DNA of 41,596 bases from IMG/VR virus record IMGVR_UViG_3300010362_000045, positions 1 through 41,596 of that record. The stretch is one strand, 5' to 3'. The notes beneath the pieces were generated by a model. That model did no database searches and was not told where the DNA came from. It saw only the letters and a program-made list of their open reading frames with translations. This stretch comes from a virus (Duplodnaviria > Caudoviricetes). Shown here piece after piece: positions 3,905 to 41,477 of this stretch. Numbering within the stretch: the first letter of the stretch is position 1; every line of letters starts with the position of its first letter. The position numbers were made by a program, and so were the translations under genes.

Positions 3905-4339
3905 CTACTCGTCGTCGCGCACGGGCGCCGGCTCGAGGCGCGCGGACATCGCCTGCAGCCCGTCCAGGAGGATGTCGGCCCAGTCCATCGCTTCACCGAA
4001 GCGGGACAGGTCGACGCTCTCCATGATGCGGGCAAAGCGACGCTTGCGGGCGCGGATCTCGAGTCGGCGCGGGTGCTGCGGGCGGGATGGCTCAGCCATG
4101 GGCAGGTGTCCGGCGGCTCTCAGGAGCTCGATGGCATCCATCTCAAGGATCTCGGCCATCTGCAGCACTGTGCTCGGCAAGGGGGTCTTGCGCGTGGCCG
4201 GGTTGGTCGAGAGCCAGCGGCCCACGGTGCTCTCGCGGGTCTCGAGCAGCTGGGCGAAATAGCGACGGGTCCAGTGACGTGCGTCCAGCTCCTGACGCAA
4301 AACGAGGTGCAGATCAGCACTGCTCGGGGAGGAGCACAT
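3905..4339 (-). CDS. XRE-family HTH phage repressor
   Basis: HTH pattern LRQELDARHWTRRYFAQLLETRESTVGRWL...ELLRAAGHLP. It lies upstream of the integrase and is divergent from the excisionase operon. Confidence 0.8.
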   Translation of the reverse strand: MCSSPSSADLHLVLRQELDARHWTRRYFAQLLETRESTVGRWLSTNPATRKTPLPSTVLQMAEILEMDAIELLRAAGHLPMAEPSRPQHPRRLEIRARKRRFARIMESVDLSRFGEAMDWADILLDGLQAMSARLEPAPVRDDE

Positions 4340-4468
4340 AGCGACATGCCCAGACTAGCCGATGACACGGGCCGCCCGTCCCGGACAGTCATTTCACTGC
4401 TAAAGCGTAAACTGCGTCACCCGAGCGGCGCAAGGCGAGAATGTAGCGCAGGCAGGCGTAAGCATTTC

Positions 4469-4496
4469 TGTGTAACATTGCGCTGCCGTTTACACA
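4469..4496. promoter_or_regulatory. Candidate operator (inverted repeat TGTGTAA-N14-TTACACA)
   Basis: Inverted repeat in the AT-richer switch region between the repressor and excisionase genes. Related GCGTAA/TTACGC half-sites lie nearby. Confidence 0.35.
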
Positions 4497-4600
4497 ACGA
4501 GCGATCAACGTTAAGACGCGGCGGGTGGGGACGCCGAGCCACAGCAGGGGTAAGTCGGAAGGGGTTCCTGCCCATGCCAGCCGCAGCTTTTACGCTCGTC

Positions 4601-4624
4601 AGTATAGAACGTCTGTTCTATACT
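4601..4624. promoter_or_regulatory. LexA/SOS box (AGAAC-N4-GTTCT) overlapping the rightward early promoter
   Basis: Palindrome AGTATAGAAC-GTCT-GTTCTATACT with perfect 10-bp arms. It contains a -10-like TATACT (4619-4624), with a -35-like TCGTCA (4596-4601) 17 bp upstream. Confidence 0.75.
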
Positions 4625-4728
4625 CTGGGGGTGCCGGCGTCGTGTCACAGTTTGTGTAGCGCTGCGCCGTGGCCCGTGTCGGCACGCCACGGCATGCCGG
4701 GAATGGCCGGCGTGTGTTGGAGCGTGCC

Positions 4729-7099: not shown

Positions 7100-8071
7100 G
7101 TGTCAACGGAGATTGTGGCATCGGGTGAGTTCGCGTCGTCGGCCGAGGAGCGCGTCCAGGACCTGATCGTCCAGTTCGCGAATTCGTGGCGGCGCACGCT
7201 GGCGCTCGCGATCGAATTGGGCGAAGCACTGCGCGAACTCAAAGGTGAGCTGGGGCACGGCAACTGGTTGCCGTGGGTAGAGGAGAAGTTTCCGTACGGC
7301 GAACGGATGGCGCGCCGGTTTATGGACCTGGCGGCAAATCGGTCAGAAATGTCCGATTTACCGGTGGACACGCCGTTCACCTCGGCGCTGGACTGGCTGC
7401 GCGAGCAGCGACGCAATGGCAGACCGGTACCGGAGCCGGAGTCGAAGGAGCTGGAGGAGCAACTCCAGCTCCTGCGCTTCGCGCACGCGGAGCAGCCGAC
7501 CGCGACGCTGATTGCGTTGATCCTGCGCGTGTTGTTTCCGGATGCGCGCAACGCACTCGATGTGACCTATGGCTCCGGTGCGTTCTGGGATGGCTCGGCG
7601 CACGTGAAGGTAACAGCGCACGACCTGGACCCGCGGCGGGTGCCGCCGGACGGGCTGATGAATTTTCTCCGCCTGACCTATGCGAACGACAGCTTCGACG
7701 TGGTGATCTTCGACCCGCCGCATCTGGCCGACACGGGCGATGCCTCGATCATGGGCGAGCGATTCGGCACGTATCAGAATCAGCAACTCGGCGAGCACAT
7801 CGCACAAGGCACGCTCGAGGCGTGGCGCGTGGCGCGGCTGGGCATCGTCTGCAAAGTGACCGACCACGTCCACGGCCATGAGTGGCAGGAAGAGAGCAGC
7901 TGGGTACGCGGCGCGCTCGAGGGGCTCAGGCCGTACGACGTGGTGCATCAGGTGCGCGACAAGCCGCTCGTCGCGCCGATGTGGCGCGAGCAGCTCAGTG
8001 CGTACAACAACGGATCCACCTACCTGATCTTCAGGAAGGGTGACCAGAAGCACGTGCGGAGGTCGAGGTGA
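7100..8071 (+). CDS. DUF3102-like domain fused to an amino-type DNA methyltransferase
   Basis: N-terminal AIELGEALRELKGELGHGNWLPWVEEKF...ARRFMDLA; SAM-binding LDVTYGSGAFW; catalytic-type FDVVIFDPPH. Confidence 0.75.
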   Translation: MSTEIVASGEFASSAEERVQDLIVQFANSWRRTLALAIELGEALRELKGELGHGNWLPWVEEKFPYGERMARRFMDLAANRSEMSDLPVDTPFTSALDWLREQRRNGRPVPEPESKELEEQLQLLRFAHAEQPTATLIALILRVLFPDARNALDVTYGSGAFWDGSAHVKVTAHDLDPRRVPPDGLMNFLRLTYANDSFDVVIFDPPHLADTGDASIMGERFGTYQNQQLGEHIAQGTLEAWRVARLGIVCKVTDHVHGHEWQEESSWVRGALEGLRPYDVVHQVRDKPLVAPMWREQLSAYNNGSTYLIFRKGDQKHVRRSR

Positions 8072-10877: not shown

Positions 10878-12302
10878 ATGCGCGCGATCAGTCTCTTTTC
10901 CGGCGCGGGCGGCTTCGAGCTCGGCTTTCAGCGGGCCGGCATCGAGACCATCCTCCAGGCCGAGAACGATCCGGTCTGCCTGAGCGTGCTCGCGCGCCAC
11001 TGGCCCGACACGGACCGCGTGCATGACGTTCGCGAAGTGGACGCGGCCTCACTTCGAAGACGACGCGGAAACCTGGACGGAGTCGGACGAGGCACCGACA
11101 CTGAACGGGTTCGAGATGCGCACGGGCGGGGACTCGACGCCAACCCTGTTGACCTTGTCTACGGCGGATTCCCCTGCCAGGACGTCTCCGTGGCCGGCAA
11201 CCGGGCCGGTCTTTCCGGCTCACGCAGCAGTCTCTGGTTTGAGTTCGAGCGGGTCCTGTCCCAGCTGCGGCCACGCTGGGTGGTCGTTGAGAATGTTCCC
11301 GGACTGTTTTCCAGCAACGGTGGACGGGACTTTGCCCGAGTTCTCATGGGCCTGGGCGAACTCGGGTATGGGTGGGCGTACCGAGTTCTGGACGCGCGCT
11401 GGTTCGGCGTGCCCCAGCGGCGCCGTCGCATCTTCATTGTCGGCTATCTTGGAGACGCGACCCGTGCCGCGCAGGTACTGGCTGTCTGCGAGAGCTGCGG
11501 GGGGCATCCTGCGCAGAGCCCAGCTGCGGGGGAAGGAGTTGCCTACGCGCTTGCGGCAAGCGCTCGAGGCACTGGCGACGGGCACGGCAACGCGTGGAAC
11601 TCCACCTACGTGACCAGTCACCTCCAGCCAGCCGATCCGGATGGGGTGGCCCGACCGCTGGTCGCGCGCGCGACCGGCTATCGCATGGACCTGGAGTCCG
11701 AGAACTTCCTGCTCGCGAGCACGCTCAACGGTGGCGAGGTGGACGATCAGGCACCACCCCTGGTCGGTGGCGACGGGCCGCATGGTCGCTCGACCTTCAA
11801 CGGCATGGACGTGGTCGTGGCCAACAGCCTGCGCGCCGCCGACGGGCACCACGGCCACTCGTCCGGCTGCGGCGACGGTGCCGACAACCTCGTGGTAGCC
11901 GACCCCATCAGCGCGCACGAGGGCAAGACCTATACCCACGAGGGCAGCGGTAACTTCCGCACGCACAACCTCGTGCAGGCCTTCGATTGGCAGGCCTCGG
12001 CCGGCAACGATCACTCGTGGCGGGGCTCAGGCCGGCAGCACGTGGTCCGATCCGGCGACTACGCCGGGGCCACCAGCGCTACGCGCGTGGACGCGATCAA
12101 CTACTCGGCCGGGGTGCGCCGCCTGACGCCCCTCGAGTGCGAACGCTTGATGGGCTGGCCCGACGGCCACACCCGCACCGGCCACGACGGCAAACTGATC
12201 GCGGACTCACACCGCTACAAGCTCTGCGGTAACGGCGTGGTCGCGCCAGTGGCCGAATGGATCGGCCACCGGCTCGTGTTCGTCGATCAGGCGCTCTGCT
12301 GA
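10878..12302 (+). CDS. DNA (cytosine-5)-methyltransferase
   Basis: Motifs I (SLFSGAGG), IV (GGFPCQD), VI (ENVPG), VIII (PQRRRRIF), IX (RRLTPLECERLMGWPD) and X (GNGV). Confidence 0.95.
   Translation: MRAISLFSGAGGFELGFQRAGIETILQAENDPVCLSVLARHWPDTDRVHDVREVDAASLRRRRGNLDGVGRGTDTERVRDAHGRGLDANPVDLVYGGFPCQDVSVAGNRAGLSGSRSSLWFEFERVLSQLRPRWVVVENVPGLFSSNGGRDFARVLMGLGELGYGWAYRVLDARWFGVPQRRRRIFIVGYLGDATRAAQVLAVCESCGGHPAQSPAAGEGVAYALAASARGTGDGHGNAWNSTYVTSHLQPADPDGVARPLVARATGYRMDLESENFLLASTLNGGEVDDQAPPLVGGDGPHGRSTFNGMDVVVANSLRAADGHHGHSSGCGDGADNLVVADPISAHEGKTYTHEGSGNFRTHNLVQAFDWQASAGNDHSWRGSGRQHVVRSGDYAGATSATRVDAINYSAGVRRLTPLECERLMGWPDGHTRTGHDGKLIADSHRYKLCGNGVVAPVAEWIGHRLVFVDQALC
11023..11613 (+). CDS. Nested alternative-frame polypeptide, resembling the beta chain of heterodimeric C5 methyltransferases
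   Basis: 196-aa ORF in the +1 frame, entirely inside the methyltransferase gene. Its C-terminal part reads SSLSAILETRPVPRRYWLSARAAGGILRRAQLRGKELPTRLRQALEALA. Confidence 0.7.
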   Translation: MTFAKWTRPHFEDDAETWTESDEAPTLNGFEMRTGGDSTPTLLTLSTADSPARTSPWPATGPVFPAHAAVSGLSSSGSCPSCGHAGWSLRMFPDCFPATVDGTLPEFSWAWANSGMGGRTEFWTRAGSACPSGAVASSLSAILETRPVPRRYWLSARAAGGILRRAQLRGKELPTRLRQALEALATGTATRGTPPT

Positions 12303-31744: not shown

Positions 31745-32649
31745 CCGTCACGCTGACCGACATCGAACGCGCGACCGCGCGCAAGGTCGGTCCGTTCTAT
31801 GCTGCCGCGCTCGACCGCCAGATCCCGTCGATCTCTGGCCTGGACTTCGCGGTCGTGCCGAACCTGCGTTCGACCAGCGAGCAGGATCTGGTCACCAACC
31901 TCTGGCTGCTCCGCCGCGGGCTCGATTTCCTGGGCAATCCGGTCACGGTCGACACGCTCGATCGCCAGCGTCTGGTTGCCAGCTACGACTCGCTCAGCGG
32001 ACGCGTGGTCGTCGATCGCCCCTGGTCGGCCGTGCCCGTGCCTGGCGAGATGGTCGAGTTCCACCACCTCGATCCATCCATGGAGCTGCGGGTGTCGGTG
32101 CGCGCAGGCCTGCGGCGCTGCTTCTTCGAGGACCGCTTTTCGTTCGGCTCGAGCCTTGTCTTCGAGGCCGACCTGACCTCGGTACTGCCGTGGCTCATCG
32201 ATCCGAGTTCGATCGGACGGGTCGAGGTCAGTTTTCCCAGTGGCGGATTAGGGAGCATCCCACGCGAGATCCCCTTCAGGGTCTTCGGCCAGGGCGGGCA
32301 CGTGTGCATTCGCCTGGGTTCAGGCAGCAGCGGCGTGCTGGTCACCGTCTATCACCCGCATTTCAGCTGGGTCAACGGTGCCGACGCGCTCGACGGCCCC
32401 CTCGATGATGACGACGAGCTCGACGTCGATCTGGACTACGCCGTGTCGGCGGCGCACATCGAGGCCTGGCACAACTTCCCGGCCAAACTGATGTCCGCAG
32501 GGGCGGGTGGCCTGCAAGCCACGCAAGCGATGGCCGCGCTCGAGTTCACGCGTCAGTCGCGCATCTGGTTCCCACAACAGCCGCGCAGCGTCCAGTTCTC
32601 GGAGGCCTTCGGCACCGGCGCGTTTGACTCGGTGGTGGTCAACGCATGA
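31741..32649 (+). CDS. Putative head-tail adaptor
   Basis: ATGA coupling; [18 protein letters not shown]-terminal helix; position between head and tail genes. Confidence 0.55.
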
Positions 32650-33812
32650 CCAGGCCGGTCGTGCCCGTGGTGCCCGTCGTTCGCCCGTTGGTGCCCACCG
32701 TGCCAATCGCCTCGCCTTCGGTGCCACCTGTCGTCGGGCCACCAGGTCCGCCCGGCCCGCCCGGTCCAGAAGGACCGCCCGGCCCGCAGGGTGACCCTGG
32801 CCCAACTGGAGCAACCGGACCAACCGGTCCCACGGGTCCGGCGGGGACGGTGAGCTTCCCGCTCCTTGCACCCTTCGGCACGCCCGGCGCACCCAGCTAT
32901 TCCTTCAGTGGCGATGCCGATACGGGCATCTACCGCAATTCGACGGCGGGCCTCGGCGTGGCCATCGACGGCTTCGAGAAGCTGCTGCTCGATAGCTTCG
33001 GCCTGAACGTGACTGACGCGCTCGACGTGGCCGGCACCACGCGCCTGCGCGATGACACCCAAATCAATGGCGACCTCGCGTTTTCGCCGGACAACCTCTA
33101 TGACATCGGCACCGCCGCCGCGAATCGCCCACGCAGCCTGCACGTGAGCACAGACCTCGATGCGGGTGGCCCGGCAACGCCAGGCGCACTGCACATCCAT
33201 CGCGTGGGCACGCCCGGGGCAACGAACTTCGAGCGCTGCATCCTTAGCTGGGGGACGTCCTTCTGGTCGAGCACCTCGGCCTGCCTGCTGACCGACCAGG
33301 GCGGTACTGGCGTATCCCGCGACCTGATCGTCGGGACCAGTGGCCCTGCGGGTTTGCTCCGTCTGGTGACGGGCAACGTGGCACGCTGGGGGGTCGACAG
33401 CAACGGGCACCTCTACAGCGAAAACGACGGCACCTATGACATCGGCCTGCCCAACACCAGCCGCGTGCGCAACATCTATTTGTGGGAAGCGCTGGGGCAG
33501 TTCATGCGCTCCAGCACGCCTGCCAACCCGAGCGCGGGCAGCCTGAAGCTCTACCCGAAGACCGACGGCAACTACTACAAGCTCAACTCGGCGGGCGTCG
33601 AAACGCTCGTGGGCGGTGCTACCACCTTCACGCACACCCAGGGGCCGCTCGCCGCGGTCTGGACGATCACGCACAACTTGAATCGGTTCCCGTCGGTGAC
33701 GGTGATCGATTCCGGCAACAGCGTCATTATCCCCGACGTTCACTACGACTCCGCCAATCAGGTCACGGTGAGCTTCGGCGCAGCTACTTCCGGAAAGGCG
33801 TACCTGAACTGA
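32646..33812 (+). CDS. Tail fibre protein with collagen-like Gly-X-Y repeat
   Basis: [37 protein letters not shown]; [15 protein letters not shown]; C-terminal [15 protein letters not shown]...SGKAYLN domain. Confidence 0.85.
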
Positions 33813-40421: not shown

Positions 40422-40616
40422 ATGCCGGATATGTTCCACGTCGTCTACCACGAGACAAGCAGGCGCATCGACGGGCTCGAGCCGAAGGGCGGGGTTGGTC
40501 CCGACCACAAGGTAGCCGTCATCCACGACATGGCCGAGTACGAGAACCTGCGGCGCTATGACCCCGCGTACCTGAGCCTCGACGGCGAGCACATCGTTGG
40601 AGCTCCACCGGCATGA
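40422..40616 (+). CDS. Hypothetical protein
   Basis: AGGAG RBS; 64 aa. Confidence 0.65.
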   Translation: MPDMFHVVYHETSRRIDGLEPKGGVGPDHKVAVIHDMAEYENLRRYDPAYLSLDGEHIVGAPPA

Positions 40617-40798
40617 CCGATTTCGTGGTCGGCCCTGGCGTGGCGCAGGCAATCGCCGACGCGGGCGATGAGGCGCGCTCGAGCGAGCTGTACATCGTCA
40701 ACGAAGAAGGCCGCAAGATCAGCCAGACCTATGGCCGCGACGCCGTCTACGTGTGGATCCAGGAGGACAACCAGACCAGGCGCCTCCCTTTCGAATAG
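40613..40798 (+). CDS. 61-aa protein; probable N-terminal domain of a frameshifted endolysin
   Basis: GGAG RBS and ATGA coupling; ends CTC CCT TTC GAA TAG. Confidence 0.75.
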   Translation: MTDFVVGPGVAQAIADAGDEARSSELYIVNEEGRKISQTYGRDAVYVWIQEDNQTRRLPFE

Positions 40799-41334
40799 CG
40801 GCCCCCGAGCCGCCGCCGCCGCAAGTTGTCTGGTACGGCAGCCCGAACTTCTGGCACGGGCGTCCCTCAGGCCCGCCGATCGCGCTGGTGATCCATACGA
40901 TGGGCGGCACGCTGGCCGGCTGCGATTCGTGGTTCAACAATCCTGGTAGTCAGGTATCTGCCCACTTCGGCGTCGGGCTCGAGGGGCAGATCCATCAGTA
41001 CGTGAACGTCGGGGACCGGGCCTGGGCCAACGGGGTGCTCGAGATTGGCAACTTGTGGCCTGGGCCTGACGGCGTCAATCCCAACGATCTGAGCGTGAGC
41101 GTCGAGACTGAGGATCTCGGGAACCCGAATCAGCCGGTCACCGACGACCAGTACGAGTCGACCCTCTACGCGTGCCAGCTCGCGATGTCCGCGTACCCCG
41201 AGTCCATCGAGTGGCTGCTGAGCCATTCTGACATCAGCCCGAGCTCGCGGCCCAATTGTTGCGGAGATAGATGGAAAGACTCAGGGCGGTTCATCAACCT
41301 GGCGCTCGCTCTGGGATTGGGGACTGTCTCGTGA
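40753..41334 (+). CDS. N-acetylmuramoyl-L-alanine amidase (Amidase_2-type endolysin) catalytic domain
   Basis: SPNF, LVIHT, SAHFGV, RAWAN, SVSVE and LSHSDI...NCCG match the Zn-amidase pattern. It has no convincing start of its own. Confidence 0.88.
   Translation: MDPGGQPDQAPPFRIAAPEPPPPQVVWYGSPNFWHGRPSGPPIALVIHTMGGTLAGCDSWFNNPGSQVSAHFGVGLEGQIHQYVNVGDRAWANGVLEIGNLWPGPDGVNPNDLSVSVETEDLGNPNQPVTDDQYESTLYACQLAMSAYPESIEWLLSHSDISPSSRPNCCGDRWKDSGRFINLALALGLGTVS
40786..40813 (+). promoter_or_regulatory. Candidate -1 programmed ribosomal frameshift signal
   Basis: X XXY YYZ heptamer C CCT TTC (40786-40792) in the correct frame, a 5-nt spacer, then the hairpin GCGGC-CCCCGA-GCCGC. Confidence 0.65.
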
Positions 41335-41477
41335 ACCTTGCCTTAGCGCCTGTCACCGTGGGCTGGATCGTGGCCTTGCTGGTGCTGATCCTGACGATCG
41401 TGTTCGTGGCCATCGGCCGACTGGACATCGTGCCGGGCGGGCTCATCGCGGGGGTCGCGCTCGCGCGGCTGCTCTAA
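41331..41477 (+). CDS. Putative holin (two TM segments, 48 aa)
   Basis: GTGA overlap with the amidase stop; the sequence is almost entirely hydrophobic. Confidence 0.6.
   Translation: MNLALAPVTVGWIVALLVLILTIVFVAIGRLDIVPGGLIAGVALARLL

What the first reader, a model, noticed from the sequence alone, without database searches (positions are those of the whole stretch)
40613..41334. Endolysin apparently made by -1 programmed frameshifting, giving a short and a long product
Seen: a well-initiated 61-aa ORF ends ...CTC CCT TTC GAA TAG. C CCT TTC is a canonical X XXY YYZ slippery heptamer in the right phase, followed 5 nt later by a GC stem-loop. The -1 frame reads PF-RIAAPEPPPPQVVWYGSPNF..., a Pro-rich linker leading into the amidase. 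The amidase has no credible start of its own: GTG 40753 lacks an SD, and the first Met lies after the first Zn-ligand His. The fusion would be about 240 aa. Known: -1 frameshifts are typical of tail-assembly chaperones and some capsid or tail genes, and endolysins such as CTP1L and Lys170 make excess binding subunit from internal starts. Inference: this is a reversed design, with abundant free N-terminal subunit plus a minor N-domain-amidase fusion, setting the stoichiometry of a hetero-oligomeric lysin or limiting lysin dose. I do not know a described example in lysis genes.
Basis: partly seen in the sequence, partly recalled or inferred. Interest (0 to 1): 0.82.

Follow-up and report, generated by a model that had tools for sequence, protein, structure and literature searches.

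The report
Two-way frameshift builds two-part phage lysin
In this soil phage and over a hundred relatives, a 60-residue gene ends at a conserved slippery sequence just before a start-less cell-wall enzyme in another reading frame, so ribosome slippage (backward here, forward in most relatives) likely makes a plentiful small, probably wall-binding protein and a rarer full-length lysin from one gene, a route I did not find described for phage lysis enzymes.

Summary
The 61-aa ORF ends C CCT TTC GAA TAG, and an Amidase_2 domain with no usable start lies in the -1 frame (fusion 240 aa). Of 135 non-identical relatives with an enzyme behind the module, 103 need +1, 23 need -1 and 9 are in frame with a -1 stop right behind. 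All 135 keep TTTY in the phase that fits their direction, with a stop within 0-3 codons. The 3' hairpin is no better than shuffles and is not conserved. The module folds like a cell-wall-binding LGFP repeat (weak match) and also sits on other wall hydrolases, where it often follows a likely internal start. A second, unrelated module reaches the same free-module-plus-fusion pair by -1 slip at C CCA AAA (20 of 35) or by gene duplication (14 of 35). Best reading: programmed ribosomal frameshifting makes excess binding subunit for a likely multimeric endolysin, the mirror image of CTP1L/Lys170. No protein or oligomer data. The scan earlier noted an unrelated frameshift lysin in cyanophages.

The parts
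40422..40616 (+). 64-aa upstream ORF whose TGA overlaps the ATG of the module gene (ATGA, likely translational coupling); context only
   Evidence: ATGA/GTGA overlap in 81 of 98 representatives
40599..40602 (+). GGAG, SD-like, 10 nt before the ATG
40613..40798 (+). Module-1 gene, 61 aa (6.9 kDa, acidic): helix plus four-stranded sheet, LGFP-like, likely cell-wall-binding; the short product
40786..40792 (+). Shift site C CCT TTC; reads Pro-Phe in both the 0 and -1 frames
40796..40798 (+). TAG stop one codon after the Phe; a stop within 0-3 codons is conserved in all classes
40798..40813 (+).
40792..41334 (+). -1 frame extension, 180 aa: Pro-rich linker then zinc amidase (Amidase_2 match about 40873-41262; first His at 40894)
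41331..41477 (+). 48-aa hydrophobic ORF overlapping the amidase stop (GTGA); holin-like by position and hydrophobicity only
   Evidence: a similar small hydrophobic ORF follows in 63 of 84 representatives, no control run

Best explanation
The locus is likely one endolysin gene read in two ways: most ribosomes would stop at TAG and release the 61-aa, probably cell-wall-binding module, while a minority would slip back one base on C CCT TTC and make a 240-aa module-linker-amidase that likely assembles with the free modules into a multivalent lysin. Shown: the sequence anatomy, its conservation, the three frame classes, the convergent second module and the module's presence on other wall hydrolases. 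Inferred: the slip itself, which product is the major one, wall binding and assembly. Likely mechanics: tRNA-Pro and tRNA-Phe can pair in both registers of CCCUUUY. In the +1 class, tRNA-Phe on UUU would slide to UUY while a stop or a CGG/CGA codon waits in the A site. In the -1 class, both tRNAs would slip in tandem when a sense codon follows, or tRNA-Phe alone when a stop follows directly.
For: (1) 41 of 43 protein homologs are 60-63 aa; 1 hit among 132 longer candidates. (2) In 135 loci the enzyme is in +1 (103), -1 (23) or 0 (9); TTTY is in the matching phase in 135 of 135, and a stop lies 0-3 codons on in all. (3) Codon lock at 90%-dereplicated level: TTT 78 of 78 in +1 vs 18% background, CCC 72 of 75 vs 28%; CCT 8 of 8 in -1 and 4 of 4 in-frame vs 12%. 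Other Phe codons in the same module are TTT in 32 of 144. (4) In the -1 class, all 10 loci with a sense codon before the stop have the full C CCT TTY, and all 9 that lack the CCC have a stop directly after Phe. (5) No SD-led start before the catalytic residue in 71 of 78 (+1) and 9 of 9 (-1); no start at all in 9 of 87. (6) The -1 and in-frame classes are each rejected as one clade on the peptidase tree (AU p about 1e-61), which points to repeated switching on a kept motif. (7) Model pLDDT 92.6; top two of 48,161 chains are the LGFP-repeat domain of C. glutamicum MytA (Z 6.4, rmsd 2.4, 56 aligned). Remote homologs are terminal domains of Amidase_2, Amidase_3, GH25, NlpC/P60, SLT and glucosaminidase proteins. 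(8) Where the module is C-terminal, 15 of 33 proteins have a Met just before it (14% expected), with SD in both DNA-readable cases. (9) Module 2: 20 of 35 with C CCA AAA and -1, 14 of 35 as a free gene plus a fusion gene.
Against: No protein, ribosome-profiling or RNA data. No conserved 3' structure and no SD at stimulatory distance, so efficiency could be low. In the 9 in-frame loci (4 lineages) the fusion would be the default product, which argues against one fixed stoichiometry; their -1 stop could be a relic of a +1 ancestor, and one of them (L039) has an extra stand-alone module gene. The LGFP match is below the Z of 8 that the tool calls clear, and there is no sequence match to LGFP. On the short module tree non-monophyly is weaker (-1 class p 0.02; in-frame p 0.14), and module swapping could mimic switching. 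The 9 loci without CCC may be one clade. 63 of 94 peptidases have a Met nine residues before the catalytic Cys. 50 of 120 amidase homologs fell in my 'short' class (no module recognised by my profiles), several with their own start, so a covalently attached module is not always needed. The p-values ignore relatedness.
Confidence: 0.6

Rival explanations
1. The ribosomal shift is real, but the free module does not join the enzyme. The shift throttles lysin dose, and the short product is a by-product or competes for wall sites to time or contain lysis.
For: The lysin would be the minor product in 126 of 135 loci, and no strong stimulator is seen. Pinto 2022 has a section headed that the two polypeptides do not always interact (heading seen).
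Against: A throttle alone does not need a separate free-module gene (14 of 35 module-2 loci, and L039), an internal start or a kept -1 stop in in-frame fusions.
Confidence: 0.2
2. The module is a virion component (decoration or tail part) and the shift adds a few hydrolase-bearing copies to the particle, as with frameshift-extended capsid and tail proteins.
For: It lies next to tail-fibre genes. Known phage frameshifts that switch between +1, -1 and in-frame are in structural proteins (PMC5009743 passage).
Against: The module travels with wall hydrolases at either end of ordinary lysin-type proteins, and a small hydrophobic gene follows in 63 of 84.
Confidence: 0.08
3. Two separate genes with no recoding: the enzyme starts on its own (GTG 40753 or 40888 here; the Met before the catalytic Cys in peptidases).
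For: GTG 40753 is in frame, and 63 of 94 peptidases have that Met. Relatives such as L165 do have a separately started amidase.
Against: The GTG at -13 is present in 2 of 4 amidase representatives. A start at 40888 would drop the conserved WxGSPN segment. Only 1 of 63 such Mets has an SD-like run, 31 of 94 lack the Met, and an aromatic-D/N motif upstream of it is kept in 85 of 94. This reading does not explain the codon lock.
Confidence: 0.06
4. RNA polymerase slippage on the C3T3-4 run, not the ribosome, changes the frame; this would explain both directions.
For: Families needing both +1 and -1 are a recalled sign of transcriptional slippage (own knowledge).
Against: The runs are far shorter than the 8-9 nt that usually slip (recalled). 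Phase tracks direction in 135 of 135, a stop is always adjacent, and loss of CCC goes with an A-site stop; these are ribosome-level features.
Confidence: 0.04
5. Assembly error or a decaying gene.
For: In-frame forms exist (9 of 135; P0046).
Against: 126 of 135 loci are out of frame with intact enzymes; a second assembly and a close relative agree.
Confidence: 0.02

Closest known systems
Two-polypeptide endolysins Lys170, LysIME-EF1, CTP1L, CD27L, CS74L, LysP7951 (PMC9430671: abstract and introduction read)
   Same: One gene gives a full-length lysin plus a free wall-binding domain that can multimerise (1:3, 2:2, 1:5). C-terminal copies of this very module appear to use that route.
   Different: There the binding domain is C-terminal and made from an in-frame internal start with a shared stop. 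Here it is N-terminal, shares the start, and the long form needs a frameshift. That paper has 0 occurrences of 'frameshift'. Multimerisation is unshown here.
Frameshift extensions of phage capsid and tail proteins (T3/T7, Lactobacillus A2, Listeria A118/A500/PSA) and lambda gpG/gpGT (PMC5009743 passages)
   Same: Short major product plus a C-terminally extended minor product; the review notes indifference to +1, -1 or in-frame.
   Different: Those are structural or assembly proteins, and the review puts the mixed direction down to chance insertions at different sites. Here one heptamer is reused in both directions within one family, in a lysis-type gene.
UUU_Ynn +1 sites, influenza A PA-X UCC_UUU_CGU type and shifty-stop +1 sites (PMC5009743 passages)
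   Same: The majority class is CCC UUU followed by UGA or CGN.
   Different: Bacterial phage gene; the same site is also used at -1.
E. coli copA/CopA(Z) -1 shift (PMC5009743 passage)
   Same: The in-frame class has the same logic: a -1 slip to a nearby stop would release a small N-terminal domain.
   Different: Different gene, and no 3' structure detected here.
LGFP repeat (PF08310; MytA C-terminal domain, PDB 6swz; described in PMC11299179 passages)
   Same: About 55-60 residues, N-terminal helix plus a 3-4-stranded antiparallel sheet; best structural hit.
   Different: No Pfam or sequence match, no LGFP motif, Z only 6.4; a single free copy rather than tandem repeats.
Cyanophage peptidase-lysozyme -1 frameshift lysin
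   Same: A frameshift-made two-product lysin.
   Different: By those notes a different family in which the short product is a catalytic peptidase and only -1 is used; not tested here.

Membership tests
Canonical -1 programmed ribosomal frameshift | In-phase X XXY YYZ heptamer | tested here: met
   C CCT TTC at 40786; 14 of 23 -1 loci have it, the other 9 have N GCT TTY plus a stop
Canonical -1 programmed ribosomal frameshift | Conserved 3' stimulatory structure 5-9 nt downstream | tested here: not met
   (simple hairpins only; pseudoknots not modelled)
Canonical -1 programmed ribosomal frameshift | Internal SD 10-14 nt upstream (bacterial stimulator, recalled) | tested here: not met
   AG-rich runs lie 18-24 nt upstream, in Glu-Glu-Asp codons
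Canonical -1 programmed ribosomal frameshift | Trans-frame protein observed | not testable with these tools
   no protein data
+1 P-site slippage at UUU_Y (majority class of relatives) | UUU followed by a pyrimidine, then a stop or slow codon | tested here: met
   TTTY 103 of 103; next codon TGA 40, CGG 20, CGA 11 of 78; slowness of CGG/CGA in the host not known
Two-polypeptide endolysins of the CTP1L/Lys170 kind | In-frame internal start, shared stop, C-terminal binding domain | tested here: not met
   module is N-terminal and out of frame; the feature appears only in C-terminal relatives
Two-polypeptide endolysins of the CTP1L/Lys170 kind | Short product is a wall-binding domain | tested here: inconclusive
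   fold and domain context point that way; binding not assayed
Two-polypeptide endolysins of the CTP1L/Lys170 kind | Hetero-oligomer of short and long forms | not tested
LGFP repeat PF08310 | Profile match or LGFP motif | tested here: not met
   0 of 44 members match at E up to 5; no PDB sequence match to LGFP chains
LGFP repeat PF08310 | Helix plus 3-4-stranded antiparallel sheet | tested here: met
   (Z 6.4, rmsd 2.4, 56 aligned; modest)
Amidase_2 (PF01510) | Score above Pfam cut-off | tested here: met
   62.5 bits vs 26
Papain-like C39-type peptidase (enzyme of most relatives) | Fold with Cys-His-Asn | tested here: met
   invariant C31, H121, N137; Foldseek E 1.7e-5 to PCAT peptidase, 3.8e-5 to pseudomurein endoisopeptidase PeiR; no Pfam C39 hit

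The most novel reading that the evidence does not exclude
A single Pro-Phe heptamer (CCCUUUY) works as a reversible ribosomal switch that one phage gene family has flipped repeatedly between +1, -1 and shift-to-stop. It is one of several convergent routes in these soil-phage lysins (+1 or -1 shift at this site, -1 at CCCAAAA, internal start, gene duplication) to an excess of free binding subunit for an obligately multimeric lysin.
Probability: 0.5. Interest if true: 0.87.

Novelty: new variant of a known kind. Interest (0 to 1): 0.79.

Why it matters
It adds a new route (frameshifting on an N-terminal module) to the internal-start route for making two-subunit lysins. It suggests that the ratio of binding to catalytic subunits is under selection, because several unrelated genetic solutions coexist. 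For recoding biology, it offers a natural series in which one short site, with no detected RNA structure, is used forward, backward and to truncate, so direction and efficiency can be compared directly. In practice, gene callers cut these lysins: the window's amidase is called without its first zinc-ligand His, and 21 of 120 homologs look the same (some may be contig-end cuts). Lysins mined from such phages would be cloned incomplete.

Tried and rejected
3' hairpin as stimulator: rejected. SD stimulator: not at a known distance. Pfam and PHROG gave no family for the module, the ESM Atlas gave no usable hit, and Foldseek gave nothing at E 0.001 or better in PDB or BFVD. No module-1 hit in 50,697 GenBank phages, so no cultured member was found. 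No confirmed module-1 locus in the first genome-contig scan. The distant-homolog alignment A2 was too diverse for locus searches, so junctions of distant members were not read. No RNA holder was listed, which is no evidence on expression. Raw reads were not available, only contigs. The careful tree did not finish; quick trees were used. No earlier scan note on this family by sequence, place or words. Literature: ten full-text searches listed no paper on a frameshift-made endolysin. The library lacks most subscription papers, only the first 300,000 characters of PMC5009743 are held, and supplements of large frameshift surveys were not seen.

Full report
Setting. The window is a 41.6-kb virus record. 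It carries an integrase, terminase subunits, a major head protein, an internal virion protein and tail fibres, so it is a temperate tailed phage; the one run that holds it is labelled soil metagenome. The finding lies after the tail-fibre genes and before a 48-aa hydrophobic ORF.

Observation. ORF 40613-40798 encodes 61 aa and ends CTC CCT TTC GAA TAG. The -1 frame reads Pro-Phe-Arg through the same bases and runs to 41334, with an Amidase_2 match above cut-off. Before the first His the only common starts are GTG 40753 and GTG 40888, neither with an SD-like run; the fusion would be 240 aa, 26.0 kDa. Such in-phase heptamers are rare in this genome (2 of 7939 positions). A second assembly agrees letter for letter but may come from the same sample; L085, 95% identical in the module, has the same junction. 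The stem-loop is there but folds no better than shuffles.

The family. 41 of 43 close protein homologs are 60-63 aa, and one longer hit is an in-frame fusion. I fetched loci with the module (3; best 80 of 95 viral; best 80 of 194 metagenomic), with the amidase (3) and with the peptidase found behind most relatives (best 80 of 157 viral; 3 in genomes). The samples are therefore partial and biased towards close hits. After removing identical copies there were 140 modules. Five had no enzyme in view (4 contig ends, 1 extra copy in L039). Of the other 135, which include the window's own contig L084, the enzyme is in the +1 frame in 103 (102 peptidase, 1 amidase), in -1 in 23 (19 peptidase, 4 amidase) and in frame in 9. 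At 90% identity that is 82, 12 and 4. The peptidase has invariant Cys, His and Asn and a papain-like C39-type fold, with hits that include the pseudomurein endopeptidase PeiR.

The junction. The +1 class reads CCC TTT Y, and the -1 and in-frame classes read C CCT TTY. TTTY is in the matching phase in 135 of 135. The frame that does not give the long product closes within 0-3 codons in all of them; for the in-frame class that is the -1 frame, 0-1 codons. Pro-Phe itself is a trait of the domain, also seen at the end of C-terminal copies, so the evidence is the codon choice. In the 91 representatives, TTT is 78 of 78 in the +1 class against 18% background, CCC is 72 of 75 against 28%, and CCT is 8 of 8 and 4 of 4 against 12%. 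Neighbouring codons vary freely. In five in-frame relatives, 24 of 50 same-residue codons differ synonymously while the last nine bases stay fixed. Within the -1 class, a sense codon before the stop goes with the full heptamer (10 of 10) and loss of CCC goes with an immediate stop (9 of 9, possibly one clade). No 3' structure is conserved and no SD sits at a stimulatory distance. Sister pairs differ in class (L007/L022, L044/L046, L064/L069, support 99-100). One clade is rejected for both minority classes on the peptidase tree (37 rows: 28 of the 70 full-length +1 rows, chosen by me, plus all 5 -1 and 4 in-frame rows). The module-DNA tree is weaker (p 0.02 and 0.14).

Own start for the enzyme? 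In 71 of 78 +1 and 9 of 9 -1 representatives there is no SD-led start before the catalytic residue. Nine have no start at all, and in 14 the product frame is closed five codons upstream (the last counted by eye). The main counter-point is a Met nine residues before the catalytic Cys in 63 of 94 peptidases. Only 1 has an SD-like run, 31 lack the Met, it also occurs in in-frame fusions, and a conserved aromatic motif lies upstream of it in 85 of 94. It does not apply to the window's amidase.

What the module is. The model is confident: one helix, four strands. The two best of 48,161 chains are the C-terminal repeat domain of C. glutamicum mycoloyltransferase A (Z 6.4 and 5.5, modest), described as LGFP repeats that bind wall components (PMC11299179 passages; the primary paper was not read). 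There is no sequence match to LGFP. A profile search gave 67 relatives. Of 43 longer proteins scanned (42 from that search plus P0046), 13 carry a wall-hydrolase family at E 0.01 or better: Amidase_2 (8), Amidase_3, GH25, NlpC/P60, SLT and glucosaminidase; most of the rest have no family. Among 33 proteins with an internal or C-terminal copy, 15 have a Met in the 12 residues before it (14% expected). In both cases with DNA (L285, L286) a strong SD precedes that ATG. This fits an internal start of the CTP1L kind, though it could also be a relic of gene fusion.

Convergence. Searching from the peptidase side showed a second, unrelated N-terminal module. Of 35 non-identical loci, 20 end in C CCA AAA G, one codon and a stop, with the enzyme in -1 (19 scored, 1 cut by a contig end). 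Fourteen have a stand-alone module gene followed by a module-enzyme fusion gene (1 cut by a contig start), and 1 is unclear (counted by eye). Among 120 amidase homologs, 32 are fused to module 2 and 4 to module 1. Free module plus fusion is thus reached by +1, -1, shift-to-stop, duplication and probably internal start.

Host. Not settled. Module-2 cassettes lie in two genomes titled Chloroflexota/Chloroflexia (one on a 1.12-Mb contig), and C-terminal module-1 lysins are in 2 of 66 genomes of their class. The only module-1 frameshift locus in a genome is a 39.7-kb phage-sized contig in a Gemmatimonadales bin. Chloroflexota is my best guess.

Mechanism and verdict. I put about 0.9 on a programmed ribosomal shift and 0.6 on the full reading, that the free module is an extra binding subunit of a multimeric lysin. 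Known two-polypeptide endolysins use in-frame internal starts (PMC9430671, abstract and introduction). The known phage frameshifts in the passages I read are in capsid, tail and chaperone genes (PMC5009743). In one training set of 2476 annotated shifts, 2397 were tail chaperones and 79 hypotheticals (PMC10885494 passages). Ten searches listed no frameshift-made endolysin, within the library's limits. Earlier unchecked notes of this scan describe a different one in cyanophages. Both ingredients are known; the combination and the two-way site are new to me: a new variant of a known kind, interest 0.79.

Noticed in passing
L236:2798-3447, L237, L244, L249, L253, L258-L261, L265-L273, L275, L278: A second, helical ~60-aa module joined to the same peptidase by a -1 site C CCA AAA G (20 loci). 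An Atlas look-alike cluster carries Phage_tail_T in 21% of members, a lead only.
   Followed up: partly
L168:5601-6453, L169:5600-6447: Module-2 two-gene cassettes (free module, then module-peptidase) that appear to sit among host-type genes in Chloroflexota genomes, on at least one side; prophage remnant or domesticated.
   Followed up: partly
L165:2057-4504: One phage with two lysin cassettes: module 2 free plus module-2-amidase fusion, and an LGFP-like stand-alone gene followed by a separately started amidase.
   Followed up: partly
L039:3229-3414 and 4001-4663: An in-frame fusion that also has a separate stand-alone module-1 gene about 600 nt upstream.
   Followed up: partly
L285, L286 (G013, G048): Lysin-like genes with C-terminal module 1 preceded by SD plus ATG; L285 has two such SD-ATG sites nine codons apart.
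   Followed up: partly
window 40761-40766 and +1 class: The Glu codon nine before the Phe is GAG in 49 of 49, inside an AGGAGG-like run about 19-23 nt upstream of the site; too far for known SD stimulation, unexplained.
   Followed up: partly
window 33350-33356: The only other in-phase X XXY YYZ heptamer among 22 plus-strand ORFs (G GGT TTG) lies in the collagen-like fibre gene 32646-33812.
   Followed up: no
window 41274-41323 region and P0050: P0050 (121 aa) is a module followed by 60 residues that look out of frame, so possibly a shift site with a distant stop; separately, the window amidase ends in a hydrophobic tail shared by its homologs.
   Followed up: no
window 7100-8071 and 10878-12302: Two DNA methyltransferase genes, the first with a ParB-like N-terminal match, plus a ParB-like gene beside the integrase.
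   Followed up: no
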